From: Acidimicrobiales bacterium
GTDB lineage: Bacteria; Actinomycetota; Acidimicrobiia; Acidimicrobiales; Bin134
NCBI GenBank assembly: GCA_965231915.1
Contig: OZ246892.1
Coordinates: 1,536,151-1,600,150, forward strand
Direction: 5' to 3'
DNA length: 64,000 nt
Below are positions 3,966 to 47,056 of the stretch, in pieces. Both the position numbers and the translations under genes were made by a program. The notes under the pieces were generated by a model. That model saw only the letters and a program-made list of their open reading frames with translations, was not told the DNA's origin and did no database searches. Within the stretch, counting starts at the first letter, position 1, and each line of letters opens with the position of its first letter.

Positions 3966-5236
3966 CTTCCGACCGCCTCCGAATCGGCGAGACCAGCAGC
4001 GACGAAGAGATTCGTGCCGCGGTCTCCCAATGGGTCACCGAGCACGTTCCCGAGGCGTGGCGCGATGCCGCACCCCGAGGGCGGCGGGCCATCCGAGAGG
4101 TCCGACCACGAGGCGACTACGAGGCCTGGTATCCCACGCTCGCCGCATCCGGGCTGGCGGTGGCCACCTGGCCCGTCGAATACGGGGGACTCGACCTGCC
4201 CCCAGCCAAGGCCCGGGTGGCCGAGGGAGTGCTCGCCCCGCTCAACTTGGGGCGGTTGAACCCCCTGGGACTGCACAACACTGCCCCGGCGCTGTTCGCC
4301 CACGGCACCGAGGAGCAGCGGCTGCGCTTCTTGCCACCCATGGTGGCCAACCAGGAGCGGTGGTGCCAGATGTTCAGCGAGCCCGGCGCCGGTTCCGATC
4401 TGGCCTCGCTGGCCATGCGGGCCGAGCGCGACGGCGACGAGTGGATTCTCACCGGCCAAAAGGTGTGGAGCACCTGGGCTCATGAGTCTGAATTCGCCAT
4501 CTGCCTGGCTCGCACCGATCCCAACGTTCCCAAGCGCCGGGGCATCACCTATTTCCTGGTCGACTTGACCTCACCCGGCGTCGAAGTTCGGCCCCTTCGC
4601 CACATCGGCGGCGAGATCGACTTCAACGAGGTGTGGCTAGAAGATGTTCGGGTACCCGACTTCCACCGGGTGGGTGCCGCGGGCAACGGGTGGCGAGTGG
4701 CCGCATCCACCCTGGCCGCTGAGCGACAGATGGTGGCCGGAGCGGGATCGGGCGGTGTTGACCGCATTGGGGGAGGGGGGATTGAGAGCCTGCTCCAACA
4801 GGCTCGCCAAACCGGCATCGGCGGAGTCGGGCGAGATCGGCTGATGCGCATCTATTGCGAGGAAAAGGTGCGGTCGTGGACCAACGAGCGGGTTCGGGCC
4901 ACGGCCAAGGCCGGGGAAACACCGGGGCCGGACGCATCCATCGGCAAGGTGCAACAAAGCCAGCTCAACCAGGCTCTCCAGTTGGCCGCCGCCGACCTTA
5001 TGGGCATGGCGTCGGTGGCCTGGATGACCGGAGAACCGGCCGACGGGCAAGACTCCATCGAAGCCTGGGCCACGGCTATGCCCTATGCCGCCAAGGGCAT
5101 GCTGCGGAGCCGGGCCAACACTATTGAGGGGGGAACCACCGAGGTCAACAAGAACGTGATCGGCGAGAAGGTGCTCGGCCTGCCCCGCGAGCCCGACCCC
5201 TATCACGACATGGCATGGCAGGAAGTTCCGAGATAG
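3962..5236 (+). CDS. acyl-CoA dehydrogenase family protein
   Basis: Contains WCQMFSEPGAGSDLASL and the C-terminal GGTTEVNKNVIGEKVLGLPREP motif. There is an ATGA overlap with the upstream dehydratase gene. Confidence 0.9.
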   Translation: MTSDRLRIGETSSDEEIRAAVSQWVTEHVPEAWRDAAPRGRRAIREVRPRGDYEAWYPTLAASGLAVATWPVEYGGLDLPPAKARVAEGVLAPLNLGRLNPLGLHNTAPALFAHGTEEQRLRFLPPMVANQERWCQMFSEPGAGSDLASLAMRAERDGDEWILTGQKVWSTWAHESEFAICLARTDPNVPKRRGITYFLVDLTSPGVEVRPLRHIGGEIDFNEVWLEDVRVPDFHRVGAAGNGWRVAASTLAAERQMVAGAGSGGVDRIGGGGIESLLQQARQTGIGGVGRDRLMRIYCEEKVRSWTNERVRATAKAGETPGPDASIGKVQQSQLNQALQLAAADLMGMASVAWMTGEPADGQDSIEAWATAMPYAAKGMLRSRANTIEGGTTEVNKNVIGEKVLGLPREPDPYHDMAWQEVPR

Positions 5237-5267
5237 CCAAGGGCTAGGAGCGAAAGGAGCGACACTC

Positions 5268-6005
5268 ATGTTCGAGCTCAATCAGAAAACGGCGCTGGTA
5301 ACTGGCGCGGGCCAAAACGTCGGCGCAGGTATCGCCCGTACGCTGGCGTCCCAGGGGGCCCACGTTTTGGTCAACGACATCGTCGTCGACCGGGCAGGTG
5401 AAGTGGCTGATCAGATTGCGGCCTCCGGCTGCTCCGCAGAAGCGCTGCCCTTCGACGTCACCGACGGCGACGATGTGCGGGCGGCCATCGCCGATCGGCC
5501 CATCGACATCCTTGTCAACAACGCCGGCAACAGCGGGGCCGAAATGATGCAGGTCAAGCCCTTCGCGGAGACTGAGCCAGCAGACTGGGCAGGACCCCTG
5601 GCCGTCAACCTAGATGGGGTCATGAACTGCACCCACACCGTTCTCCCCGGGATGATCGAGCGGGGCTGGGGCCGAGTCATCGGCGTCGTCTCAGGGGCTG
5701 GCACCGTCGGCGTAAACATCGGCGTGGCGGCCTATTCGGCGGGCAAAGGCGGTGCGGCCGGGTTGTTGCGCTCAGTGGCGCTTGAGGTGGCCAAAACGGG
5801 AGTCACAGTGAACTCCATCGCCCTCGGACTGATGTCGAACACCGGCGACACCGGTGTCACCGACCAACTGGCCAGGGCCATCCCGACCCGCCGTTTGGGC
5901 ACCCCCGAAGACGTCGCCGCCCTGTGCGCCTACCTCGCCTCCGAGGAAGCCTCCTGGATGACCGCCCAAACCATCCCCCTCGCCGGAGGCTCCATCACCA
6001 GCTGA
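5268..6005 (+). CDS. SDR family oxidoreductase
   Basis: Has the TGAGQNVGAG dinucleotide-binding motif, NNAG, and YSAGK (YxxxK). Confidence 0.9.
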   Translation: MFELNQKTALVTGAGQNVGAGIARTLASQGAHVLVNDIVVDRAGEVADQIAASGCSAEALPFDVTDGDDVRAAIADRPIDILVNNAGNSGAEMMQVKPFAETEPADWAGPLAVNLDGVMNCTHTVLPGMIERGWGRVIGVVSGAGTVGVNIGVAAYSAGKGGAAGLLRSVALEVAKTGVTVNSIALGLMSNTGDTGVTDQLARAIPTRRLGTPEDVAALCAYLASEEASWMTAQTIPLAGGSITS

Positions 6006-6029
6006 ACCCCAACCGCCTAGTCTGCGGAG

Positions 6030-7157
6030 ATGGCAATATCCACCGAGGCCGCCGTCTTGCGGGCGGTAGGGGAGCCGCTGTCTATAGAGGCGATTCAGGT
6101 TCACCCGCCCTCTCACGGTGAGGTGATCTTGGAGATGGGGGCCGCGGGAATATGCGGCTCGGACCGCTATGTGATCGAGGGCACGTACCCGGTGGAGCCG
6201 CCCGCGGTTTGCGGTCACGAGGGCGCCGGGGTGGTGGCCGAGGTCGGACCGGGCGTGCGGTCGCTGGAAGTTGGAGACAGCGTTGTCCAGATATTCATCG
6301 GGCCGTGCGGTACCTGCCGGAACTGCCAGAGAGGGCTCAAAACCTTCTGCTCCACAGGTATGGACGCGTCGGGGCGGTTGCGCGACGGCACCTATCGCAT
6401 GTTCGACCAATCGGGGGCTGCGGTGGGGACCCATCTCGGGCTTGGGAGCTTTGCCCGCTACACCGTCACCCCTGAGCGCCACCTGGTGAAGATTCCCGAC
6501 GGGGTGGAGCCCGCAGTGGCGGCCCTGGTCTCCTGCGGGGTATCGACGGGCGTCGGAGCGGCGGTAAATGTCGCCCGCGTCCAGCCCGGTGATGCAGTGC
6601 TGGTGCTCGGCTTAGGCGGGGTGGGAGCAGCGGCGGTGATGGGGGCGGCGCTGGCGGGCGCGGAGCGAATCGTGGCCGTGGATGTCAAGGCCGAAAAACT
6701 CGCCCTCGCCTCTGAGTACGGGGCAACCGACGTCGTGGATGCCAGTGCCGACGACGTTGCCGATGCGGTGGGGGAGTTAACCGGCGGTCGGGGAGTGGAC
6801 GCGGTGTTGCTCACCCCAGATCGGGTCCGTCCCGAGCACTACGAGACGGCCATTGCCTGTCTCGCCCCGGCCGGGATAGTGGTGCAAGTGGGCGGCACGT
6901 CGCACGGGATGGAATCGATCCCGATTTCCCCCAATGCGCTGTTGGCCCAAAGGGCCATTGTCGGCACAACGATCGGAGGTCCCGACCCCGCAAGAGACGT
7001 TGTGCGCTGGATCGACCTCTACCTAGCCGGAAGGCTGCCGCTGGAGAAGCTCGTCACCCGGCGCTACCCCCTCGAAGAAATCAATACCGGCTTCTCCGAC
7101 TTGGCCGCGGGCCGCAACATCCGAGGGGTCGTCGCCATGACGGGCGACATGGACTGA
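6030..7157 (+). CDS. zinc-dependent alcohol dehydrogenase family protein
   Basis: Has the GICGSD and CGHEGAGVV zinc-ligand motifs and the LGLGGVG Rossmann motif. Confidence 0.9.
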   Translation: MAISTEAAVLRAVGEPLSIEAIQVHPPSHGEVILEMGAAGICGSDRYVIEGTYPVEPPAVCGHEGAGVVAEVGPGVRSLEVGDSVVQIFIGPCGTCRNCQRGLKTFCSTGMDASGRLRDGTYRMFDQSGAAVGTHLGLGSFARYTVTPERHLVKIPDGVEPAVAALVSCGVSTGVGAAVNVARVQPGDAVLVLGLGGVGAAAVMGAALAGAERIVAVDVKAEKLALASEYGATDVVDASADDVADAVGELTGGRGVDAVLLTPDRVRPEHYETAIACLAPAGIVVQVGGTSHGMESIPISPNALLAQRAIVGTTIGGPDPARDVVRWIDLYLAGRLPLEKLVTRRYPLEEINTGFSDLAAGRNIRGVVAMTGDMD

Positions 7158-7242
7158 AGTTGACGACCTGGCCATAGGCATAGATGCGACTACTAGCACA
7201 GCCAGTACAGGTTGGGCGCTGTCTGTTGCTTTTGGGATCATC

Positions 7243-7278
7243 TGACATTACATTGATGTCAAACAACTCGATTGACAT
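7243..7278. promoter_or_regulatory. candidate relBE operator/promoter (TGACAT half-sites)
   Basis: TGACAT (7243..7248) and ATGTCA (7256..7261) form an inverted repeat. A third TTGACAT lies at 7272..7278, about 22 nt upstream of the antitoxin ATG. Confidence 0.3.
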
Positions 7279-7299
7279 CCAGTCGACCAAGGAGTCCAC

Positions 7300-7521
7300 A
7301 TGAGCCAAATCACCGCCCGGGTTCCCAGCGAGCTTGTTGAGGCGCTGGATGCGGCCGCTGAGGATTTGAAGCGCAGTCGGGCTGACATAATTCGCCAGGC
7401 CTTGGAACGCTATTTAGAAGATTACGACGATCTCGACGTCGCCCTTGAGCGCCTGCGAGATCCAGCCGATCCGGTGCTCGATTGGGACCAGGTCAGACAT
7501 GATCTGCTCAATTCGGATTGA
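7300..7521 (+). CDS. relB: ribbon-helix-helix (CopG/RelB-type) antitoxin
   Basis: ITARVPSELVEALDAAAEDLKRSRADIIRQALERYL is a classic RHH motif. It lies directly upstream of a RelE/ParE toxin gene. Confidence 0.85.
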   Translation: MSQITARVPSELVEALDAAAEDLKRSRADIIRQALERYLEDYDDLDVALERLRDPADPVLDWDQVRHDLLNSD

Positions 7522-16163: not shown

Positions 16164-17849
16164 TTAAGGGTTTAGGAGTTCATCGCGCACTTGGCGTTTT
16201 AGGTATTTGCCGGAGGCGTTGCGGGGGAGGGGGGTTTGTTGGAACCAGATGTGGGCGGGGATCTTGTGAGGGGCTAGGCGGCCGTCGAGGTGAGTTCTGA
16301 GGCCGTGGGCGTCGAGCTCGCGGCCGGGGAGCAGCACCACCGCGGCGCCGGGCACCTCGCCGAGTCGCTCGTCGGGCACGGCGAACACGATGGCCTCGGC
16401 CACCGCGTCGTGCTGGTAGATGGCGTTCTCCACCTCGGCGCAGGCGATGTTCTCACCGCCTCGGATCACGAGGTCTTTGGCCCGGTCCACGATGGCGATG
16501 AACCCGTCTTCGTCGATGGTGGCGATATCCCCGGTGTGGAGCCAGCCGTCGACGATGGCCTCGGTGGTGGCCTCAGGTTTGTTGAGGTAGCCCCGGATGA
16601 CGATGGGCGAGCGCACCAGCAGTTCTCCTGGCTGGCCAGGTGCCAGTTCAGCGCCGTTGTCGTCCACCACCTTGGCCTCGACGGTGGGCAGCGGCTGGCC
16701 CACGGTTGTGGGCTTGTCCACGTAGATCCGCCCCACGTTCATGGTGACCACTCCGCTGGTCTCGGTCAGGCCGTAGCCGGTTCCTGGGTTGCCGCTGGGA
16801 ATCGAACGGGCGATCTTGTCCACCAGGTCGGGGTGTAGGGGCGAGCCTCCGCCCCCGAGCGAGCCCAGGCTGGAGGTGTCGTATTGGTCGAAGTCGGGGT
16901 GCAGCACTATCTCCCGGGACATGGCCGGCACCGCGGCAAGGGTGCTGGGCCGCTCAGCGTCGATCAGCTTCAGTGCCTCGGTGGCGTCCCAGCGGTACAT
17001 GAGCACCAGCTTTCCGCCCACCGCGGTGGTTGGGAGCAGGTAGCAGTTGCACCCGGTGACGTGGAACAGCGGCACGCACACCAAACCGGCCGGCTGATCC
17101 CGCTGGTCGCGGGGGATGGGCGCCCTTTCGTTGATCAAGCCCAAGGCCGCCGAGTAGAAGCCCATGTTCATCACGTTGTGCACTGCCGCCCGGTGGGTCA
17201 TCACCGCTCCCTTGGGGAACCCGGTGGTGCCCGACGTGTAGAACACGCACAGGTCGTCGTCGGGGCCGATGGTCACCTCGGGCAGCTGGGGCGGGTCGGG
17301 GTCGGCCACCGTATCGGCCCATCGGATCACGTCGCCGGGCAGTTCCTCCTCGCAGCGGGTCACGATCACCGGGACATCGGGTCGGGGGTCGAGGGATTGC
17401 AGGAGCTCCCAGCGCTCGCCGTCCACCACCAGCACCCTCGGGGCGCTGTCGTCCAAGCCGTAGGCCATCTCCGCTGCGGTCCACCAGGCGTTCATTCCCA
17501 CCACCACTGCCCCCATCGACACCGTCGCCCAGTAGGCGATGATCCACTCGGGGTAGTTGCGCATGGAGATGGCCACCCGTGCGCCCTGGCCCACACCGTT
17601 GGCGGCCAGCCACGTGACCAGGGCACCCACCTGGCGATGGGCCTCGGCATACGACAACCGTTCGTCGCGAAAAACCAGGTAATCGGCCTCACCGTGAGCC
17701 GCGGTGCCGACAAAGAAGTCCCGCATGGAATCGGGCGCGTGGTCGAAAATCCGCAGGGGGACGCCGTTTACCTCCTGCACCGACCAGGAGAAGAGCTGGC
17801 CCGGCGCGGTGACCTGCTCCGCGGCCTCATTCCAGGCGGCGAGGGTCAT
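16164..17849 (-). CDS. AMP-dependent acyl-CoA synthetase/ligase
   Basis: Contains the FYTSGTTGFPKGAVMTH AMP-binding signature, GYGLTET, and a C-terminal LPRNASGKYLKRQ. Confidence 0.9.
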   Translation of the reverse strand: MTLAAWNEAAEQVTAPGQLFSWSVQEVNGVPLRIFDHAPDSMRDFFVGTAAHGEADYLVFRDERLSYAEAHRQVGALVTWLAANGVGQGARVAISMRNYPEWIIAYWATVSMGAVVVGMNAWWTAAEMAYGLDDSAPRVLVVDGERWELLQSLDPRPDVPVIVTRCEEELPGDVIRWADTVADPDPPQLPEVTIGPDDDLCVFYTSGTTGFPKGAVMTHRAAVHNVMNMGFYSAALGLINERAPIPRDQRDQPAGLVCVPLFHVTGCNCYLLPTTAVGGKLVLMYRWDATEALKLIDAERPSTLAAVPAMSREIVLHPDFDQYDTSSLGSLGGGGSPLHPDLVDKIARSIPSGNPGTGYGLTETSGVVTMNVGRIYVDKPTTVGQPLPTVEAKVVDDNGAELAPGQPGELLVRSPIVIRGYLNKPEATTEAIVDGWLHTGDIATIDEDGFIAIVDRAKDLVIRGGENIACAEVENAIYQHDAVAEAIVFAVPDERLGEVPGAAVVLLPGRELDAHGLRTHLDGRLAPHKIPAHIWFQQTPLPRNASGKYLKRQVRDELLNP

Positions 17850-39980: not shown

Positions 39981-40196
39981 TTAGGCGGCGAAGTGCTCGT
40001 CTTCCGAGCGGTAGTGCTCAGCCAGGCCGCTGAGAGCAGGGTGGCAAAGCTCTGAAGGCCTGAAGCGGACTGATCCGCCGATGTTGTAGGCGGGCACGAG
40101 GCCGTCGTTGATGCCTCGCAGCAAGTTCTGCAGTTCAACGCCCAGCAGCCGGCAAGCGGCGGCTGGCCCGATGAGGTTTTCCACAGGGTGGTTCAT
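39981..40196 (-). CDS. excisionase-family (MerR-like HTH_17) DNA-binding protein
   Basis: LIGPAAACRLLGVELQNLLRGINDGLVPAYNIGGSVRFRPSEL fits the Xis/HTH_17 pattern. A strong RBS (AAGGAGA) lies 6 nt upstream of ATG 40196. Confidence 0.7.
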   Translation of the reverse strand: MNHPVENLIGPAAACRLLGVELQNLLRGINDGLVPAYNIGGSVRFRPSELCHPALSGLAEHYRSEDEHFAA

Positions 40197-40425
40197 TGTT
40201 TGTCTCCTTTTCTTTGCATTGCCTCAGACGCTGAACACGGCCAAGACCCAATTGGAGCGGCAATTTTTGCAATCCAAATTGTCAAATGACTCCCACCGGG
40301 ACGGATTTTGGTGTGGGAACTTGCCGTTTTCGTCCTTTTGGTTCCAATTTCCCGGTATCAGCAAGGCTCCGAACTTGCATCTGACCTGGGATTTTGCCTG
40401 GTTGGGTCGAACGCGGCGGAAAAGG

Positions 40426-40471
40426 TTGCGAAAATTCAGATTTTTTGTTGAAAATCACAGAATTTTCGCAA
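40426..40471. promoter_or_regulatory. nested AT-rich palindrome (terminator and/or operator candidate)
   Basis: A perfect 12-bp inverted repeat, TTGCGAAAATTC (40426..40437) and GAATTTTCGCAA (40460..40471), encloses an inner GATTTT/AAAATC repeat (40439..40456). On the minus strand it lies ~40 nt after the LLM stop and is followed by CCTTTTCC. Confidence 0.45.
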
Positions 40472-40510
40472 AATCAACAGAAATGGGACAGCAAGTGTCG
40501 CGCCGAGTAC

Positions 40511-41404
40511 TCAGAATCGAGAGATCACTTCGGCCCCAAAGCGGTCTAACACGGCCTGGGAGGAGGCCAAATCGGGCTCATGAATGCTGTAAATCATGCG
40601 AGTTGCCCCCAGGTCACTCAGGAACAGGGCATCGTCGAGAGTGGCACCGAAACCCTGAAGTTCGCAGGCTCCCGCCCGTCCGGCATCGGCAGCCTGGCGC
40701 TGCACTTCGGCCCAAATGACAGGCCACTGGTCCCGATTCTGCGAGGCGGAGAAGGCGGGCAGAAAGGCATCGCCTCGTTGTCCGGCCCGACGCAGCGCCG
40801 GCGGGGAATGGCCCCCCACGATGATGGGGATGCCATCGGGCTGGCGGGGGAAGGTGGTGAGCTGAATGTTGTGGAACGAAATGGTCGGCCCCGCAAAGCT
40901 GGCCACCCGGTTTCCCCACAGTTCTCGCATTACGTCGATGTACTCGTCGGTGCGGGCGCCACGGTCGGCGAACGAATAGCCCAGGGCGTCGAACTCGTCG
41001 GCCAGCCATCCCGCGCCGATACCCAACTCAGCTCGACCTCCCGACAACACGTCGATGGTGGCGAGCTGTTTGGCCAGCAGCATCGGGTGGCGCTGGGGCA
41101 ATACCAAGACTGCGGTTCCGAACCGCAGAAACTCGGTGACCCCGGCCAAAAAGGCCATCAGCGCCAGCGGCTCGGGAAGCTGGGTGTGCTCGTTGTCCCA
41201 CGGATACTCACCCGACTGGGCGTAGGGGTACGGCGCTTGTTTGGCGGCGGGAAACACGATGTGGTCGGCGAAGAACAGCGAATCACACCCCACCTCCTCA
41301 GCGTGCCGGGCAAACCCCGCCAAGAACTCCGGATCGGCTATCGGCGCCGCCGGAGGCCCCGACAACCCTGTCGCACTGCCAATGAGATACAGCCCGAACT
41401 TCAT
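40511..41404 (-). CDS. LLM-class F420-dependent oxidoreductase
   Basis: Starts MKFGLYLIG, with SLFFADHIVF and GGRAELGIGAGW motifs. The start was taken at ATG 41404; the track ORF extends to 41461. Confidence 0.85.
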   Translation of the reverse strand: MKFGLYLIGSATGLSGPPAAPIADPEFLAGFARHAEEVGCDSLFFADHIVFPAAKQAPYPYAQSGEYPWDNEHTQLPEPLALMAFLAGVTEFLRFGTAVLVLPQRHPMLLAKQLATIDVLSGGRAELGIGAGWLADEFDALGYSFADRGARTDEYIDVMRELWGNRVASFAGPTISFHNIQLTTFPRQPDGIPIIVGGHSPPALRRAGQRGDAFLPAFSASQNRDQWPVIWAEVQRQAADAGRAGACELQGFGATLDDALFLSDLGATRMIYSIHEPDLASSQAVLDRFGAEVISRF

Positions 41405-41449
41405 TCCCGTAGCCTCCCACGGCTGGTCCACCCCTACCCTGGTGGGGCC

Positions 41450-43555
41450 ATGTCCGCTCATCCATCACTTGGTGATTTCATGCCCGATGCGGGCGATCCC
41501 GATGAGCTGCTGGGAGCCTTCTGCGACTGGGCCGAGGCCGCGGAACTGGAGCTGTACCCCCATCAGGAAGAGGCGGTGCTTCGGCTGCTGGCGGGTGACA
41601 ACGTGGTTCTGGCCACGCCCACCGGCTCGGGCAAGTCGCTGGTGGCGCTGGCCGGGGCGTTTGCGGCGCTGGCCCAAGGGCGCCGGACGGTGTACACCGC
41701 GCCGATCAAAGCGCTTGTCAGCGAGAAGTTCTTTGAGCTGGTAGCGGCTTTCGGAGCCGAGAGAGTGGGGATGGTCACCGGCGACGCTGTTGTGAACGGG
41801 AATGCGCCGGTGATTGCCTGCACGGCCGAGATCCTGGCCCAGCGGGCCCTGCACTCTGGTAGCGAGGCCGACGCCGACCTCGTGGTGATGGATGAGTTCC
41901 ACTATTACGGAGATCGGGATCGGGGCTGGGCCTGGCAAGTGCCGCTGCTTGAGCTGAGCCGCCCCCAGTTCCTGTTGATGTCGGCCACTCTGGGCGACAC
42001 CACCGCCCTTCGCCGGGACCTCAGCCAGCGCAATGGACGGCCTACCGCGCTGGTGGCCTCAGCCCAGCGGCCGGTGCCGCTGGATGTGGAGTACCGGGAG
42101 ACGGCGCTTCACGTGTCCATTGCTGAGTTATTAGCCGCCGACAAGGCGCCGGTGTACATCGTCCACTTCACCCAGCGGGAGGCCACAGCACAGGCCCAGA
42201 GCCTCACCAGCCTTGACGTGTTGGGCCCCCACGCCAAGGCGGACGTGAAGGAGGCGATCGGCGGTTTCCGGTTCGATACCCCGTTCGGCAAGGACTTGCG
42301 CCGTTTCGTGCTGGCCGGGGTGGGAGTACACCACGCCGGGCTGCTGCCCAAGTACCGGCTGCTGGTGGAGAAGCTGGCCCAGCAGGGGCATCTCAAGCTG
42401 ATCTGCGGCACCGACACCCTGGGCGTGGGGGTGAACGTGCCCATCCGCACCGTTTTGTTCACCCGCCTGTACAAATACGACGGGCGCCGTACCCGGGTGC
42501 TGTCGGTGCGGGACTTCCAGCAGATCGCGGGGCGGGCCGGACGGCGAGGGTTCGACACCGAGGGCAGCGTGTGGGTGCAGGCCCCCGAGCATGTGATCGA
42601 GAACCGCCGGGCCGAGGCCAAGGCCGCTTCCGACCCGATCAAGCGCCGCAAGCTGAAGAAGAAGAAGCCGCCTGACCACAATTACGCCCACTACGACGGC
42701 GACACCCTCAACCGACTGTGGCACGGCCAACCTGAGACCTTGGAGTCGAGCTTCGCAGTCACCCACTCCATGATGCTCAATGTGCTCGACCGACCCGGCG
42801 ACGGGTGTGCGGCCATGAAGCGCCTCTTGACCGACAACCACGAGCCCCGCGCCCGCCAGAGAGTCCACATACGCCGGGCGGTGGGGGTGTTCCGATCGCT
42901 GATCGACGCCGAGATCGTGGAAGTGCTTGATGCCCCCGATGGGCCGGGGCGCCCGGTGCGGGTGAACCTCGACCTGCAAGACGAGTTCCGGCTCAACCAG
43001 CCGCTCGGGCTGTTCGCGGTGGAGGCGCTGGACGCGCTCGACATGGAGGTGTCCGACTATCACTGGCAGGCACTCAGCGTGGTGGAGTCGGTTCTGGAAG
43101 ACCCATCGGTGGTGCTGCTCGCCCAGCGGGACAAGCTCCGCGACGATCTCATGGCCCAGCTCAAGGCCGAGCGGGTGCCCTACGAAGAGCGCTTGGAGCG
43201 GCTGTCGGAGGTCACCTGGCCCCGCCCCGAGGCCGAGTTCATCGATCCGGCCTTCGCGGTGTTCGCCCGCTACCACCCCTGGGTGGGCCACGACCGTCCC
43301 AGCCCCAAGTCGGTGGCCCGCGACCTCATGGAGGTCGGCGACACCTTCAACCAGTACGTCTCCCGCTACGGCATCAAACGCTCCGAGGGCGCGCTATTGC
43401 GCTACTTGTCCGACTGCTACAAGGCCCTGGTCCAGACCATCCCGGCCGCTGCCGTCAACGACGCCCTCGCCACCCTCACCGCCGAGCTCCGCACCCTGCT
43501 CCGCACCACCGACTCCAGCCTCCTCGACGAATGGGAAAGCCTGCGCCAGGGATGA
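41450..43555 (+). CDS. DEAD/DEAH-box (Ski2-like) helicase with a DUF3516-like C-terminal region
   Basis: Contains YPHQEEAV, Walker A LATPTGSGKSLVA, VMDEFHYY (DExH) and HHAGLLPKY. Track ORF 40580..43555 has a 290-aa spurious N-terminal extension antisense to the LLM gene. Confidence 0.85.
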   Translation: MSAHPSLGDFMPDAGDPDELLGAFCDWAEAAELELYPHQEEAVLRLLAGDNVVLATPTGSGKSLVALAGAFAALAQGRRTVYTAPIKALVSEKFFELVAAFGAERVGMVTGDAVVNGNAPVIACTAEILAQRALHSGSEADADLVVMDEFHYYGDRDRGWAWQVPLLELSRPQFLLMSATLGDTTALRRDLSQRNGRPTALVASAQRPVPLDVEYRETALHVSIAELLAADKAPVYIVHFTQREATAQAQSLTSLDVLGPHAKADVKEAIGGFRFDTPFGKDLRRFVLAGVGVHHAGLLPKYRLLVEKLAQQGHLKLICGTDTLGVGVNVPIRTVLFTRLYKYDGRRTRVLSVRDFQQIAGRAGRRGFDTEGSVWVQAPEHVIENRRAEAKAASDPIKRRKLKKKKPPDHNYAHYDGDTLNRLWHGQPETLESSFAVTHSMMLNVLDRPGDGCAAMKRLLTDNHEPRARQRVHIRRAVGVFRSLIDAEIVEVLDAPDGPGRPVRVNLDLQDEFRLNQPLGLFAVEALDALDMEVSDYHWQALSVVESVLEDPSVVLLAQRDKLRDDLMAQLKAERVPYEERLERLSEVTWPRPEAEFIDPAFAVFARYHPWVGHDRPSPKSVARDLMEVGDTFNQYVSRYGIKRSEGALLRYLSDCYKALVQTIPAAAVNDALATLTAELRTLLRTTDSSLLDEWESLRQG

Positions 43556-43720
43556 GAACTTTGGAAGCCCGTCGTCGGGGATCTGCATGTTGTCCTTGTA
43601 GCGGCCGCAGATACCGGTCGCTTCCCGGGCAGTGTTCATCGGTGCCGCAGCCATAAGGCCAGCTGCCTCGACCATAGGCGGTGACCATGATTGAATGGGA
43701 GCGTCTGCGGGACAAGTGCT

Positions 43721-43981
43721 TCAGTGGCCCTCAATAGCCCGCGGCGAGAGGAGGATGTGCTCCTCTCCATAGGCTTGGCCCTGGTTGTACTGCTCGATTG
43801 CCTCGTGGACATTGGCTGGTATGTCCTTGTGTCCGTTGAACCAGACTTTGCGGAGATACCGGCGAGCAGCTTTCGTTGCAGAGGCCTCGTCGTGGAACAA
43901 ATGAAGGTCGGCGCCATCATGTACGCCCCGCTCGATCAGCAGGACCCAGACACGGTGGTGATCATCAGTGGCGGTGGTCAT
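43721..43981 (-). CDS. hypothetical small protein (86 aa)
   Basis: MTTATDDHHRVWVLLIERGVHDGADLHLFHDEASATKAARRYLRKVWFNGHKDIPANVHEAIEQYNQGQAYGEEHILLSPRAIEGH has balanced composition. The upstream 80 aa of track ORF 43721..44221 are Arg/Pro/Val-rich and antisense to the next gene. I do not recognise a family. Confidence 0.45.
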   Translation of the reverse strand: MTTATDDHHRVWVLLIERGVHDGADLHLFHDEASATKAARRYLRKVWFNGHKDIPANVHEAIEQYNQGQAYGEEHILLSPRAIEGH

Positions 43982-43990
43982 GGGGTTTAA

Positions 43991-44200
43991 TTGTGCCCTT
44001 ACCCGACGTCGGGATGGTGGCACACTGGGTTGGTGGTCCCTGATCTGATCGTGTGTGTGGACTGCGGGGGGCAGTGCCACCGGATCACACACTGGCCTGA
44101 GGACGACCCGCCTGTGCCCGGCGACTCGGTGGCCTACCGGTGCTCGGACTGCGGTGACCGCTGGGACATGGTGCTCGACCCGGAGGATTTCGACGACTGA
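43991..44200 (+). CDS. hypothetical zinc-ribbon protein (two CxxC pairs)
   Basis: Contains CVDCGG...24 aa...CSDCGDRWDMVLDPEDFDD. It is divergent from the 86-aa gene. The start is uncertain: TTG 43991 or an internal GTG near 44033. Confidence 0.45.
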   Translation: MCPYPTSGWWHTGLVVPDLIVCVDCGGQCHRITHWPEDDPPVPGDSVAYRCSDCGDRWDMVLDPEDFDD

Positions 44201-44279
44201 TCGTCTCAGTTGCCTCGTCACTGGTGATTCGTATGATCTAGTGTCGAGTTAAGTTACACTTTTAGTTATAGGTAGTTAT

Positions 44280-45107
44280 ATGCCGGGCAGCACGCCTCCA
44301 TTCCCCAACCCGCCTCTGGTCTTGACCGTGCTGGAGATCCGCTATCCCGAGATTGCAGACGGGCTGGGAGACAGCGAGCGGGTGGGCCTCAAGAACTCAC
44401 TGAACGAGTATTTGCCCCTGATGGAGTCCAAGATCGAAGAACAGTTCGCGGTGGCGGTCGGGGCATCGGGCCCTGCGTCTGTTCAGCGCCGGATGTTCCC
44501 GCGGTTCGGCACTCGGGATCGGACCACAGCCCTGTTGGTCAAGCAGGATGCCCTTGTATTGGAGACTACGGCCTATGCGGGCTGGGAGGAGCACTTTCGC
44601 CCCCTTGTGGGCGAAGTGGTTGCCGCGCTGGAGCGGGTGAGCCGACCTGACGGTGTGCTGAGAGTCGGGCTTCGCTATATCGACGAAATCCGAGTTCCCG
44701 GCATCGAGTCGGCGCCAGGCGATTGGCGGGGCTACATCGACAAGCATCTGTTGGCAGGGGCTGCTCCCGAATTCATCCCCGAACACATGCGACCATCCGT
44801 TTGGCAGGGAGTAGCGCAGTACCAGACGACGACCGGCTCGACACTGGCCGTCCGCTACGGCCCACAGGAGGGCTACGCAGTGGATCCCCAGAGTCCGACA
44901 CGCCGTAAGAATCCGCCTCGTTCGGGACTCTTTTTTCTGCTGGACTCAGATTCATACTGGCTGGGGGACGAAGAGGTGCCGGAGTTCAATGCAGACTGGA
45001 TTCTTGAGCGTTGCGACCTGCTGCATGCACCGGCTCGGGAGTTTTTCAAGATCGCAGTTACTGACAAGCTGCGTGACGAAGTGTTCAGCCAACCAGTGGG
45101 GGAGTGA
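44280..45107 (+). CDS. TIGR04255-family protein (uncharacterised)
   Basis: The N-terminus NPPLVLTVLEIRYPE, the central LRVGLRYIDEIRV and the C-terminal FFLLDSDSYW match my memory of the TIGR04255 pattern. It is preceded by an AT-rich stretch with no obvious SD. Confidence 0.7.
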   Translation: MPGSTPPFPNPPLVLTVLEIRYPEIADGLGDSERVGLKNSLNEYLPLMESKIEEQFAVAVGASGPASVQRRMFPRFGTRDRTTALLVKQDALVLETTAYAGWEEHFRPLVGEVVAALERVSRPDGVLRVGLRYIDEIRVPGIESAPGDWRGYIDKHLLAGAAPEFIPEHMRPSVWQGVAQYQTTTGSTLAVRYGPQEGYAVDPQSPTRRKNPPRSGLFFLLDSDSYWLGDEEVPEFNADWILERCDLLHAPAREFFKIAVTDKLRDEVFSQPVGE

Positions 45108-45110
45108 GTA

Positions 45111-45779
45111 ATGGGAAAAGCTGACTTGATCGGGCAGTCGCCAACTGGTGCATCGATCGGCCGCCACTGGGACATCGATCCCCCTACTCGAACGATCAGC
45201 GATGTGGTCGAAGAGGCTGGCCATCTGAGGAACCAGACGAAGCTCTTGGCTGATGACACAAGCCAACTGCACTTGTCGGTAGATGTGCTGCATTCCGATG
45301 CGTTGGCGGTCGAGTTGCAGGCTTCGGCCATTCAACGGGCCAGGGAGGATCTGACCGGGCTGCTTCAGCAACTGAACGGGTTGGGGTTCTCGTGGCGGGC
45401 TATCGCCCGTGTCGCCCAAGTATCGGTCCCCGCTTTGCGAAAGTGGCGCATGGGCTCGCCTGCCACCGGCGAGAACCGCAGGCGGGTGGCTCAGATGGCA
45501 GCCCTCTGCCAAATGGCCAGCGACAAATATCTGATTGAGGACATTGCTGGTTGGCTGGAAACGCCCTTGCACGCTGACGCACCGATCACTGGGTTGGACC
45601 TGCTAGCAGGAGATCGTTCAGACCTTGTGCTGCGGCTGGTCTGTGACCGTGGAGAGAACCCTGAGCATGTGCTGGACGATTTTGAATCGGGATGGCGAGA
45701 TCGCTACGCGTCAGCAGTCGAGGTTTTTACCGCGCCTGATGGTTTGCCAGGAGTGCGGCTCGTCGAGCAAGAGGGTTGA
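45111..45779 (+). CDS. HTH (Xre-like) protein with a DUF2384/ParS/MbcA-like C-terminal antitoxin domain
   Basis: Contains the HTH GFSWRAIARVAQVSVPALRKWRMG and the C-terminal GWLETPLHADAPITGLDLLAGDRSDLVLRLV (DUF2384-like). The ATG lies 3 nt after the upstream stop, with GGGGGAG inside the upstream gene's 3' end. Confidence 0.65.
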   Translation: MGKADLIGQSPTGASIGRHWDIDPPTRTISDVVEEAGHLRNQTKLLADDTSQLHLSVDVLHSDALAVELQASAIQRAREDLTGLLQQLNGLGFSWRAIARVAQVSVPALRKWRMGSPATGENRRRVAQMAALCQMASDKYLIEDIAGWLETPLHADAPITGLDLLAGDRSDLVLRLVCDRGENPEHVLDDFESGWRDRYASAVEVFTAPDGLPGVRLVEQEG

Positions 45780-45996
45780 AGTAGCGAGTTGCCGCAGGAA
45801 GAACTCGAGTGCCCAGCCTCAGCTTCAGACCTCTACCTCGCAGCATCGCCAGAAGAGGTGGAGGCTGCCCGCCCTGTGCTGACCGGTGATGTCTTTCCCG
45901 GTCTTCAGATGAATCGGGGGCAACTCGACAAGATCAGATCAAGGCACCGCAGCGGCGAGCGGGGTTGCGGCGGCAGATGAGGAGTCACCTGCGGGC

Positions 45997-46968
45997 CTAG
46001 CGCAGTAGCGAGGCGACCCAGGTGTCGATGCGGGCGGCGTGGGTTTTGGCCATCTCGGAGGGGAAGACTATGAAGCCGTGGGGGGAGTCGGGGTAGACGG
46101 CCAGCTCCACTGGCGACTCGGCGGCGGCCAGTCGGGTGGCGAAGAACAGCGAGTCGTCCAGCAGGTGGTCCAAGGTGCCCACCGACACCAGGCAGGGGGG
46201 AAGCCCGGATAGATCGGCGAACAGGGGTGACACGTCGGGGTCGCGCTTTTCGGCCTCGGACATGTCGGGAATGAACGACTCGAGCATCATCTGCATTTCC
46301 TCGGGGCTCAACATATCGGGCCGGCCGCCGTTGCCGAAGATGGACGGGGTCCCCCGCAGGTCGTACCAGCCGAACACCAGATTGGCTCCAAGCACCCGGT
46401 CGATGGCCCCGAGCCGGTCTCGCGCCCGAAGTAGGGTGACCGCGGCCAGATGCCCGCCAGCGGACTCGCCCCCGATGAACATCTTGTCGGTTCCCCAGCG
46501 CTCGGGGCCGTGCTCCAGCATCCAGGCCGCGGCCGCCTCGCAGTCGTCGGGACCGGCCGGATAGGGGTGTTCGGGGGCCAGACGGTAGTCCACCGACAAA
46601 ACGGCCAGTCCGTGGTGCTTGGCCAAGTGCTCGTTTTCGAGGTCGGAGATCTGGGGACGGCCCACAATCCAGCCTCCCCCATGGATGTGCAGGAACATGG
46701 CCCGGGGCTCGTCGGGCACGAACAACCGCACCGGGATCTCGCCAGCCGGTCCCGGAATGGCGGCCTCGACTGCCATCGGCGATGGGTCGGGCTCAAACTG
46801 GATGATGTACTGCCGCCGAGCCTCGAGTTGCTGCCGCTTAGCCTCGGCTTGTTCCACCGGGTCGTCAATCTGTTGCTGCGCGCCCTCTCCTTCGGCTGAG
46901 GGGATGTGGTCCAGCATGGCTCGGGCCTCGGCACGGTATCCGTCGATCGTGTCATCCCAGAGTCTCAT
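45997..46968 (-). CDS. alpha/beta hydrolase (hormone-sensitive-lipase-type esterase)
   Basis: Contains the HGGGW oxyanion motif and the GESAGG nucleophile elbow. ATG 46968 is preceded by AGGAGA 5 nt upstream. The track ORF extends to 47031. Confidence 0.85.
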   Translation of the reverse strand: MRLWDDTIDGYRAEARAMLDHIPSAEGEGAQQQIDDPVEQAEAKRQQLEARRQYIIQFEPDPSPMAVEAAIPGPAGEIPVRLFVPDEPRAMFLHIHGGGWIVGRPQISDLENEHLAKHHGLAVLSVDYRLAPEHPYPAGPDDCEAAAAWMLEHGPERWGTDKMFIGGESAGGHLAAVTLLRARDRLGAIDRVLGANLVFGWYDLRGTPSIFGNGGRPDMLSPEEMQMMLESFIPDMSEAEKRDPDVSPLFADLSGLPPCLVSVGTLDHLLDDSLFFATRLAAAESPVELAVYPDSPHGFIVFPSEMAKTHAARIDTWVASLLR

Positions 46969-47056
46969 CGGTGTCTCCTGTCTAGTCGGGTTGCAGCGTG
47001 CTGCTGGCAGACTCGCCTCGTGCCTCCGCACCAGGCGGTACTACGTTGCCCCTTTT

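What the first reader, a model, noticed from the sequence alone, without database searches (positions are those of the whole stretch)
44280..45779. Tightly coupled TIGR04255-family + HTH/DUF2384-like cassette: candidate undescribed toxin-antitoxin or defence module
**Seen in the sequence**
- A 275-aa protein matching my memory of the uncharacterised TIGR04255 family (NPPLVLTVLEIRY, LRVGLRYIDEI, FLLDSDSYW).
- Three nt later comes a 222-aa protein with an Xre-like HTH and a C-terminal GWLETP...APITGLDLLAGDRSDLVLRLV segment. That segment resembles the DUF2384 toxin-binding domain of ParS/MbcA/Xre antitoxins.
- The second gene's SD (GGGGGAG) lies within the first gene.
- The cassette sits in a lower-GC islet behind an AT-rich, SD-less leader.

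**Established knowledge**
- DUF2384 antitoxins normally sit upstream of RES-domain toxins.

**Inference**
- Here the partner and the gene order are both different. The TIGR04255 protein could therefore be a new effector or toxin partner, or a sensor controlled by this antitoxin-like regulator.
Basis: partly seen in the sequence, partly recalled or inferred. Interest (0 to 1): 0.75.

Follow-up and report, generated by a model that had tools for sequence, protein, structure and literature searches.

The report
Decayed three-gene TIGR04255 antitoxin-like cassette
The two genes are real, but they are the first two genes of a widespread, mobile three-gene cassette that nobody appears to have described; its third gene, the likeliest toxic part, has been largely deleted in this genome.

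Summary
Both ORFs exist exactly as described. Gene A (44280-45107) is a firm TIGR04255 member (125.9 bits, cutoff 30). Gene B (45111-45779) is an HTH protein. By sequence its link to DUF2384/MbcA is below threshold, but its predicted fold matches RES-Xre antitoxins: NatR, MbcA, VPA0769 and P. putida Xre are the top six PDB hits.

In the window only a remnant survives (45789-46000), with a ~466-nt internal deletion.

The order A-B-C holds in 78/79 A-seeded genome loci. It holds in every C-seeded metagenome or viral locus with enough upstream sequence. It also holds, by annotation and size, in 10/10 inspected records from five phyla (nine plasmids, one phage-labelled contig). Flanking genes vary and include integrases, transposases, relaxases, type I restriction-modification and other defence genes.

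A 12-nt-periodic GGTTAC repeat lies upstream of A in 51/78 loci, against 3 matches in 2.1 Mb elsewhere. C is broken or absent in 16/74 loci, while A and B are always intact.

Best reading: an autoregulated, tripartite toxin-antitoxin-like or defence cassette, incomplete here. B is the antitoxin-repressor and C the probable effector. Function is inferred, not shown.

The parts
44210..44237 (+). Promoter-like site: TTGCCT, 16-nt spacer, TATGAT
   Evidence: Consensus scan. It is the only + strand hit in 43500-46100, where shuffles give 0.6. It is a consensus match only.
44247..44279 (+). Operator-like direct repeats: AGTTA units at 44247, 44252, 44264 and 44274, running up to the ATG of A
   Evidence: Read directly from the sequence and found as repeats. 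The strict motif [AG]GTT[ATG][CT]N6[AG]GTT[ATG][CT] occurs once in the 64-kb window, at 44252. It occurs within 100 nt upstream of A in 51/78 related loci, against 3 matches in 2.1 Mb elsewhere. Binding by B is inferred.
44280..45107 (+). Gene A: TIGR04255-family protein, 275 aa, predicted TBP-like duplicated fold
   Evidence: NCBIfam hit of 125.9 bits against a cutoff of 30. AF2 model with pLDDT 86 and pTM 0.85, showing two S1-H1-S2-S5-H2 halves. Only weak TBP and AdoMetDC fold hits. dN/dS is 0.07-0.16 against relatives.
45098..45104 (+). Shine-Dalgarno sequence GGGGGAG for gene B, lying inside gene A
   Evidence: Read from the sequence.
45111..45779 (+). Gene B: HTH protein with an Xre/MbcA/ParS-type antitoxin-like core (about residues 80-180). 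It also has an N-terminal long helix (29-77) and a C-terminal extension
   Evidence: Family-level HTH hits. AF2 model with pLDDT 84.5. The top six Foldseek PDB hits are all RES-Xre antitoxins, with probability 0.85-1.00 and target TM 0.48-0.63. MbcA is the top PDB hit by sequence profile, but at E 0.32. dN/dS is about 0.14.
45789..46000 (+). Pseudogene of cassette gene C. The first ~38 codons and the last ~32 codons remain; profile positions 41-193 are deleted
   Evidence: C-profile hits at 45780-45977 (positions 3-40) and 45890-45997 (positions 194-225), in different reading frames. BLASTN shows a ~466-nt gap relative to L002 and L004. Intact C is present at this position in 58/74 related loci.
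45899..45905 (+). Deletion junction inside C, at a short CGGT microhomology
   Evidence: Overlapping BLASTN segment ends. Side-by-side sequences of the window, L002 and L004.

Best explanation
The two ORFs are genes 1 and 2 of a self-contained, horizontally mobile three-gene operon:
- A, a TIGR04255 protein with a TBP-like duplicated fold.
- B, an HTH protein with the fold of Xre/MbcA/ParS antitoxins.
- C, an unannotated ~230-aa protein with an invariant Cys motif ((T/Q)HPC(S/A)).

The most likely mechanism is inferred, not shown. B represses the operon by binding the 12-nt-periodic GGTTAC repeats that overlap the promoter. B also neutralises a partner protein through its MbcA-like C-terminal domain. 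That partner is most probably C, which occupies the toxin position downstream of the antitoxin gene. A is then an obligate accessory, acting as a sensor, adaptor or co-effector. Together they would form a tripartite toxin-antitoxin-like or abortive-infection-type module.

In this window C has been inactivated by a ~466-nt internal deletion. Only the A-B pair remains intact, and it is under purifying selection.
For: Shown:
- A is TIGR04255.
- B's fold matches NatR, MbcA, VPA0769 and Xre as the top six PDB hits. Sub-threshold sequence hits point the same way.
- B lies immediately downstream of A in 78/79 genome loci, at 94% down to 34% identity to A.
- C follows B with a gap of -4 to +9 nt in most loci.
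- C-seeded scans find A and B upstream wherever the contig allows: 80 metagenome and 5 viral loci.
- The same annotated triad occurs on nine plasmids (Vibrio, Acinetobacter, Klebsiella, Pseudomonas, Robbsia, Rhizobium, Gloeocapsa, Meiothermus, Rhodococcus) and on one contig deposited as an Acinetobacter phage.
- The distant B proteins are homologous to B: hhalign probability 95.6%, E 1.3e-8.
- A conserved repeat motif lies upstream of A in 51/78 loci, against 3 matches in 2.1 Mb elsewhere.
- C is partial or absent in 16/74 loci. A is full-length in 79/79. B is full-length in 77/78, the exception being cut by a contig end.
- dN/dS is 0.07-0.16 for A and about 0.14 for B.
- Flanks are variable and carry integrases, resolvases, transposases, a MobF relaxase, type I restriction-modification genes (hsdM abuts C in L048-type loci and L080), ZacC-like helicases, AAA_21 and PIN genes.

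From established knowledge: in MbcTA, NatRT, ParST and Xre-RES systems, the Xre-type antitoxin gene precedes the toxin gene, and the antitoxin autoregulates the operon.
Against: - No toxicity, neutralisation, DNA-binding or phage data exist.
- B's DUF2384/MbcA link is not significant by sequence: TIGR02293 scores 13.5 bits against a cutoff of 57, PF09722 is hit in 1/51 members, and MbcA scores E 0.32. Foldseek E-values are weak (0.1-0.6).
- C has no detectable similarity to RES or to any Pfam, NCBIfam, PADLOC or PDB entry.
- The third genes of the non-actinobacterial triads are not demonstrably homologous to C (hhalign E 0.097).
- Preferential loss of C could simply reflect its position as the last gene of the operon.
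- A was intact by construction in the A-seeded set. In C-seeded loci A is partial in 4.
- Many neighbouring genes are housekeeping genes, and no formal enrichment test against a background was run.
- No PADLOC model matches A, B or C.
Confidence: 0.5

Rival explanations
1. One reading: a two-component toxin-antitoxin pair in reversed order. The TIGR04255 protein A is the toxin or effector, B is its antitoxin, and C is a dispensable accessory.
For: A and B are never found apart. They are translationally coupled: the gap is 3 nt here, and A's and B's coding regions abut or overlap in many loci. A carries family-wide conserved charged residues on beta strands (the RxGLRYxD and LDxD motifs), which could form an active site. 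Toxin-first order is known in higBA, mqsRA and hicAB. C can be lost while A-B persists under purifying selection.
Against: C lies in the canonical toxin position relative to an MbcA-like antitoxin. C is almost always present and is obligately linked to A-B. A's fold is TBP-like and has no resemblance to any known toxin. In a few C-seeded loci A is truncated while C is intact (L135, L145, L166, L168).
Confidence: 0.2
2. A non-toxic regulatory or maintenance module of mobile elements. B is an ordinary Xre-type repressor. A is a ligand- or nucleic-acid-binding sensor. C is an enzyme or anti-repressor, for example a Cys-dependent protease acting on B. There is no addiction or defence function.
For: B has an HTH and there is a conserved operator-like repeat. 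A has a TBP-like fold, typical of nucleic-acid or ligand binders. C has an invariant Cys. The cassette sits on plasmids, in prophage-like contigs and next to integrases. PADLOC gives no hit.
Against: No conserved cargo or target genes accompany the triad; only A, B and C are conserved, and the flanks differ among loci. B's closest structural matches are antitoxins specifically, ranking above generic Xre repressors. A self-contained, autoregulated cassette that hops between unrelated contexts is the hallmark of toxin-antitoxin and defence modules.
Confidence: 0.2
3. A TAC-like toxin-antitoxin-chaperone system, where A is the toxin, B the antitoxin and C a dedicated chaperone needed for B to work.
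For: The three-gene order resembles higB-higA-secB. B has extra N- and C-terminal extensions beyond the MbcA-like core, as chaperone-addicted antitoxins do.
Against: C has no SecB or other chaperone signature. C is lost in 16/74 loci and in the window, while A stays intact and under purifying selection. If C were required to keep the toxin in check, this should not be tolerated.
Confidence: 0.05

Closest known systems
RES-Xre type II toxin-antitoxin systems (MbcTA of M. tuberculosis, NatRT of P. aeruginosa, ParST, P. putida Xre-RES, VPA0769/0770)
   Same: B's predicted core (an HTH plus a helical C-terminal domain) is structurally closest to these antitoxins. A gene of unknown function follows it immediately, in the toxin position. 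The operon is tightly coupled and has an operator-like repeat at its promoter. Distribution is patchy and mobile.
   Different: There is no RES/ART-like domain in any partner. An obligatory extra upstream gene, TIGR04255, is present. B is about 100 aa longer than MbcA or NatR. PF09722 and TIGR02293 are not reached by sequence. The operator is a set of direct repeats, not a palindrome.
Tripartite toxin-antitoxin systems (TAC HigB1-HigA1-SecB; HipBST; paaR-paaA-parE)
   Same: Three co-directional, tightly spaced genes, with an Xre-type HTH protein in the middle.
   Different: Neither A nor C is related to HigB, SecB, HipS/T or ParE. The pattern of gene loss argues against a chaperone role for C.
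NCBIfam TIGR04255 ('sporadically distributed' uncharacterised family)
   Same: A is a full-length member, and database homologues carry that name.
   Different: The family has no assigned function, no Pfam model and no literature hit. The obligate HTH and third-gene partners shown here were not found described in any source searched.
TATA-box-binding-protein-like duplicated alpha/beta fold
   Same: A's model has two tandem S1-H1-S2-S3-S4-S5-H2 halves. TBPs, including giant-virus TBPs, are recurrent Foldseek hits at probability 0.7-1.0.
   Different: TM-scores are only 0.2-0.5 with rmsd above 9 A. This is topological resemblance only, and no evidence of DNA binding.

Membership tests
NCBIfam TIGR04255 (gene A) | Whole-protein HMM score at or above the curated cutoff of 30 bits, over the full length | tested here: met
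   125.9 bits, E 2.3e-36, residues 8-267 against profile positions 2-250 of 252.
Xre/MbcA/ParS antitoxins (gene B) | Xre-type helix-turn-helix DNA-binding domain | tested here: met
   The window protein itself has no Pfam hit at E <= 1. At family level, 44/51 homologues hit HTH_23 (best E 3e-7) and 30/51 hit HTH_3. The AF2 model shows an HTH at residues 81-113. Distant triad B proteins hit PF20432 (Xre-like-HTH) below threshold.
Xre/MbcA/ParS antitoxins (gene B) | C-terminal toxin-binding domain (PF09722 / TIGR02293) at or above the curated threshold | tested here: not met
   TIGR02293 scores 13.5 bits against a cutoff of 57. PF09722 is hit in 1/51 members at E 0.0037. The profile search against PDB puts MbcA first, but at E 0.32.
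Xre/MbcA/ParS antitoxins (gene B) | Fold similarity to solved antitoxins of the family | tested here: met
   The top six Foldseek PDB hits are 8qnl (NatR), 6fkg_C (MbcA), 8gug (VPA0769) and 9r35 (Xre). Probability is 0.85-1.00 and target TM 0.48-0.63 over 94-136 columns. E-values are weak, 0.1-0.6.
RES-Xre toxin-antitoxin systems | An adjacent RES-domain (PF08808) toxin | tested here: not met
   No RES hit at E <= 1 in A, in 8 C proteins, or in the distant third-gene proteins. C's fold was not determined.
Type II toxin-antitoxin module (generic) | Small, tightly linked co-directional genes with patchy, mobile distribution | tested here: met
   Gaps are mostly -4 to +9 nt. Flanks are shared only with the four closest genomes. 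The cassette occurs on plasmids and next to integrases and transposases.
Type II toxin-antitoxin module (generic) | Autoregulation by the antitoxin at an operator in the promoter | tested here: inconclusive
   A conserved 12-nt-periodic GGTTAC repeat lies upstream of A in 51/78 loci, against 3 matches in 2.1 Mb elsewhere. Binding by B was not tested.
Type II toxin-antitoxin module (generic) | One product is toxic and is neutralised by the cognate antitoxin | not testable with these tools
   This needs expression experiments. The only indirect evidence is that C is lost in 16/74 loci while A and B are kept.
Known anti-phage defence systems (PADLOC-DB v2.0.0) | A match to any system model | tested here: not met
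   No hit for A or B at E <= 1. C gives only chance-level single-member hits, the best at E 0.011.
Anti-phage defence systems (generic) | Location in defence islands | tested here: inconclusive
   Matches among 138 nearest neighbours from 72 loci:
- 5 type I methyltransferases
- 5 ZacC-like
- 4 integrases
- 3 resolvases
- 3 PIN
- 2 AAA_21
- 2 DUF4007
- 2 transposases
Many neighbours are housekeeping genes. No background comparison was made.
TAC (toxin-antitoxin-chaperone) | A SecB-like chaperone as the third gene, required for antitoxin function | tested here: not met
   No SecB or chaperone hit for C. C is lost while A remains intact.

The most novel reading that the evidence does not exclude
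The TIGR04255-HTH-third-gene triad is a previously unrecognised, cross-phylum family of tripartite abortive-infection or anti-phage (or plasmid-addiction) systems. It would combine three parts: a TBP-like-fold protein that senses a nucleic acid or nucleotide signal, an MbcA-fold antitoxin-repressor, and a new Cys-dependent effector unrelated to RES.
Probability: 0.3. Interest if true: 0.8.

Novelty: new variant of a known kind. Interest (0 to 1): 0.62.

Why it matters
TIGR04255 is a named family with no known function, and C has no model in the four profile libraries searched (Pfam, NCBIfam, PADLOC, PHROGs). C is nonetheless large: 783 clusters at 50% identity.

Several features together turn two orphan families into a concrete, testable candidate for a new toxin-antitoxin or defence system:
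- Both families are locked into one conserved operon with an MbcA-fold regulator.
- The operon occurs across at least six phyla when the chromosomal loci are counted.
- It sits on plasmids, in prophage-like contigs and beside restriction-modification systems.

If confirmed, this would extend Xre/MbcA-type antitoxins beyond RES toxins. It would also add a TBP-like-fold component to bacterial conflict systems.

For annotating this genome specifically, the local copy should be recorded as an incomplete cassette with a pseudogenised third gene.

Tried and rejected
- **Sequence-level DUF2384.** I tested this with Pfam, NCBIfam and a PDB profile search. Results were sub-threshold only, so the link rests on fold.
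- **RES or other known toxin domain in A or C.** None was found.
- **Known defence systems.** PADLOC gave no hit.
- **Solved-structure relatives of A.** Only weak TBP and AdoMetDC topology matches turned up. I noted a TTM/CYTH resemblance in low-probability BFVD hits and did not pursue it.
- **A B-C fusion as a Rosetta stone.** P0486 (479 aa) looked like one, but it is a frameshift artefact with an out-of-frame Arg-rich linker.
- **Homology between actinobacterial C and the third genes of proteobacterial and cyanobacterial triads.** Not significant (hhalign E 0.097). Only a short N-terminal motif resemblance remains.
- **Literature.** Searches for TIGR04255, IPR026349 and protein accessions returned 0 papers. 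Searches on tripartite and Xre toxin-antitoxin systems found nothing matching.
- **E. coli genomes.** The Klebsiella triad has no match.
- **Phage collection.** The window's A gives no hit. The Vibrio A hits only a contig labelled as an Acinetobacter phage.
- **tRNA or att site near the cassette.** None was found.
Full report
**1.

ORF A (44280-45107, +, 275 aa) and ORF B (45111-45779, +, 222 aa) are present and contain the quoted peptides.
- They are 3 nt apart. GGGGGAG (45098-45104) lies inside A, 6 nt before B's ATG.
- The leader before A is AT-rich and has no Shine-Dalgarno sequence.
- GC falls to 0.59-0.62 across 43500-46000, against 0.65-0.68 in the flanks.

**2. Domain calls.**

A is a clear, full-length TIGR04255 member: E 2.3e-36, 125.9 bits against a cutoff of 30. 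It has no Pfam or PADLOC hit.

B on its own has no Pfam hit. Its only signal is a sub-threshold match to TIGR02293, the DUF2384-type antitoxin family (13.5 bits against a cutoff of 57). Evidence from B's 169 homologues (alignment A1):
- 44/51 hit HTH_23 and 30/51 hit HTH_3.
- Only 1/51 touches PF09722.
- A profile search of PDB sequences ranks MbcA first, but at E 0.32.

The AF2 model of B (pLDDT 84.5) settles the matter at fold level. The six best PDB matches are all RES-Xre antitoxins: NatR 8qnl, MbcA 6fkg_C, VPA0769 8gug and P. putida Xre 9r35. They score probability 0.85-1.00 and target TM 0.48-0.63, and cover nearly the whole antitoxin. Compared with them, B adds a long N-terminal helix (residues 29-77) and a C-terminal extension.

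The AF2 model of A (pLDDT 86, pTM 0.85) consists of two tandem S1-H1-S2-S5-H2 halves. It has only weak, TBP-like or AdoMetDC-like topology matches in PDB and BFVD. It does not resemble RES or ART toxins.

**3. The cassette has three genes, and the third is broken here.**

A genome scan seeded with A returned 79 loci across Actinomycetota, plus one Chloroflexota, at 94% down to 34% identity. In 78 of them a B homologue lies immediately downstream on the same strand. The single exception is a contig that ends 120 nt after A.

Clustering the neighbouring ORFs showed only one other conserved gene. This is a + strand ORF of about 220-240 aa, here called C. It starts -4 to +9 nt from B's stop in most loci.

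What is known about C:
- Its invariant motifs are RPxxTGDV and (T/Q)HPC(S/A)(M/I)R.
- It has no Pfam, NCBIfam, PADLOC or PDB-sequence match.
- Public sources call it 'hypothetical'.
- The family is sizeable: 783 clusters at 50% identity at E <= 1e-3.

In the window, C survives only as a remnant. Profile positions 3-40 (45780-45977) and 194-225 (45890-45997) are present in different reading frames. Relative to L002 and L004, about 466 nt are missing, with the junction at 45899-45905 on a CGGT microhomology. The finding's end coordinate therefore cuts off a pseudogenised third gene at 45789-46000.

**4. The triad is obligate and crosses phyla.**

Scans seeded with C returned 80 metagenome loci and 5 IMG/VR viral loci. 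Every locus with enough upstream sequence carries B and A in the order A-B-C. A is partial in four of them.

tblastn against plasmids and phages, followed by inspection of the deposited annotation, found the same layout in all ten records inspected: a 'TIGR04255 family protein', then a 165-230-aa HTH or hypothetical protein, then a 235-287-aa hypothetical protein. In Rhodococcus the third gene is annotated shorter, at 150 aa. Nine of the ten records are plasmids and the tenth is a contig deposited as a phage:
- Vibrio
- Acinetobacter baumannii
- Klebsiella
- Pseudomonas luteola
- Robbsia
- Rhizobium etli
- Gloeocapsa
- Meiothermus
- Rhodococcus
- a contig deposited as an Acinetobacter phage

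The distant middle genes are homologous to B: hhalign probability 95.6%, E 1.3e-8 over the HTH and the region after it. The distant third genes share only a short N-terminal motif pattern with C, namely a hydrophobic strand followed by [ST][HQ]xC[DS]. Homology between them is not demonstrated (E 0.097).

PHROGs holds unannotated families that match the Vibrio A and the Klebsiella third gene.

**5. Genomic context.**

At the DNA level, only 44204/44253 to about 45900 is shared with loci beyond the four closest genomes. The flanking genes differ.

In the window the neighbours are ordinary chromosomal genes:
- a DEAD/DUF3516 helicase
- a luciferase-like monooxygenase
- an alpha/beta hydrolase
- an acyl-CoA thioesterase
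- a short-chain dehydrogenase

The site is indel-prone among close relatives.

Across 72 loci, matches among the 138 nearest neighbours include:
- 5 type I methyltransferases
- 5 ZacC-like helicases
- 4 tyrosine integrases
- 3 resolvases
- 3 PIN proteins
- 2 AAA_21
- 2 DUF4007
- 2 transposases
- housekeeping genes as well

In L048, L050, L052, L060 and L080, hsdM starts at or next to C's stop codon. Plasmid copies sit beside a MobF relaxase, integrases, IS elements and a tape-measure gene. This suggests a mobile or defence-island lifestyle, but I did not test it against a background.

**6. Regulation.**

A promoter-like site, TTGCCT-16-TATGAT, lies at 44210-44237. Four AGTTA(C/T) units between 44247 and 44279 run up to the start codon.

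The strict motif [AG]GTT[ATG][CT]N6[AG]GTT[ATG][CT] behaves as follows:
- It is present within 100 nt upstream of A in 51/78 loci.
- It is found only 3 times in the remaining 2.1 Mb, counting both strands.
- It is found once in the whole window, at 44252.
- Its consensus is GGTTnCnGTTnnnGGTTnCAGTnnnGGTAnnAT, and it sits a median of 39 nt before the start codon.

Such deep conservation of non-coding repeats next to a conserved HTH gene points to an operator for B. This is an inference.

**7. Which gene is expendable.**

In the A-seeded set:
- C is intact in 58 loci, partial in 12, absent in 4 and not assessable in 5.
- A is full-length in 79/79.
- B is full-length in 77/78, the exception being a contig end.

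A was intact by construction, because it was the search seed. B was not, and B is never lost.

In the window, and against its relatives, A has dN/dS of 0.07-0.16 and B about 0.14. This includes the comparison with L001, where C is also broken. So A-B persists under purifying selection after C is lost.

This pattern fits C as the costly or toxic component. It argues against C being a chaperone needed to restrain a toxin. It could also simply reflect C's exposed position as the last gene of the operon.

**8. Interpretation.**

The anatomy is well supported: an autoregulated, mobile A-B-C operon, with C a pseudogene here. The function is inferred.

The best-supported mechanism is a tripartite toxin-antitoxin-like or abortive-infection-type module. 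B is the antitoxin-repressor. C, in the canonical toxin position, is the probable effector. A is an obligate accessory: a sensor, adaptor or co-effector. A carries family-wide conserved RxGLRYxD and LDxD strands.

Three rivals remain:
- A non-toxic regulatory module of mobile elements.
- A TAC-like system.

**9. Novelty.**

No paper in the searchable library mentions TIGR04255 or IPR026349. PADLOC v2 has no model for any of the three proteins.

The triad is therefore an undescribed variant of Xre/MbcA-type antitoxin systems, with two uncharacterised partner families. It does not qualify as a member of the RES-Xre family: the RES toxin and the PF09722 threshold were both tested and not met.

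Interest is moderate to high as a testable candidate system. It is tempered by the complete lack of functional data and by the decayed state of this particular copy.

Noticed in passing
window 43721-43981 (-) and 43991-44200 (+): Two small divergent ORFs lie between the helicase and the cassette. One is an 86-aa protein with no family hit. The other is a 69-aa CxxC...CxxC zinc-ribbon-like protein with only weak Pfam and NCBIfam hits. At DNA level they are conserved only in the four closest genomes, so they are not part of the core cassette.
   Followed up: partly
L001 and L002, about 6678-7396 (between the helicase and gene A): The closest relatives carry an extra pair of small minus-strand genes here, absent from the window. 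By eye they look like a PIN/VapC toxin and a Phd/YefM-type antitoxin. PIN hits appear in the neighbour scan. The site seems to be a hotspot for toxin-antitoxin-type insertions.
   Followed up: partly
L048, L050, L052, L060 (about 10160-16300) and L080 1277-2443: In Galactobacter, Kocuria, a Micrococcales genome, Propionicimonas and one metagenome contig, C is followed directly by hsdM, with start and stop overlapping or abutting. L048 carries a full hsdM-hsdS-hsdR set downstream. In the four genome loci a large serine recombinase lies upstream. This looks like a shared mobile island coupling the triad to type I restriction-modification.
   Followed up: partly
window 40000-40750 and 39981-40196 (-): GC dips to 0.53 over about 700 nt with no convincing ORF. 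The dip is next to a 71-aa HTH_17 (excisionase-type) ORF. It may be a remnant of an integrative element. No tRNA lies nearby; the only one in the window is tRNA-Leu at 13322-13409.
   Followed up: no
window 40511-41461 (-) and 45997-47031 (-): The luciferase-like monooxygenase gene and the alpha/beta-hydrolase gene that flank the region are absent from L001 and L002. The hydrolase is present in L003 and L004. The neighbourhood is indel-rich even among genomes about 90% identical.
   Followed up: partly
L015-L019, about 4000-7420 (upstream of A): A ~1119-aa SNF2-like helicase matching PADLOC ZacC at E = 0 lies directly upstream of the triad in several sponge-associated Acidimicrobiia.
   Followed up: no
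L007, L020, L023, L024 (for example L007 9707-11631): An AAA_21-type ATPase and, judged by eye, an RloB-like small protein (an AbiL-like pair) recur next to the triad. In L007 they sit where C would be.
   Followed up: no
L082 3540-4031 (Gloeocapsa plasmid): A SLATT-domain gene (SLATT_4, E 2.6e-5) lies about 760 nt upstream of the cyanobacterial triad.
   Followed up: no
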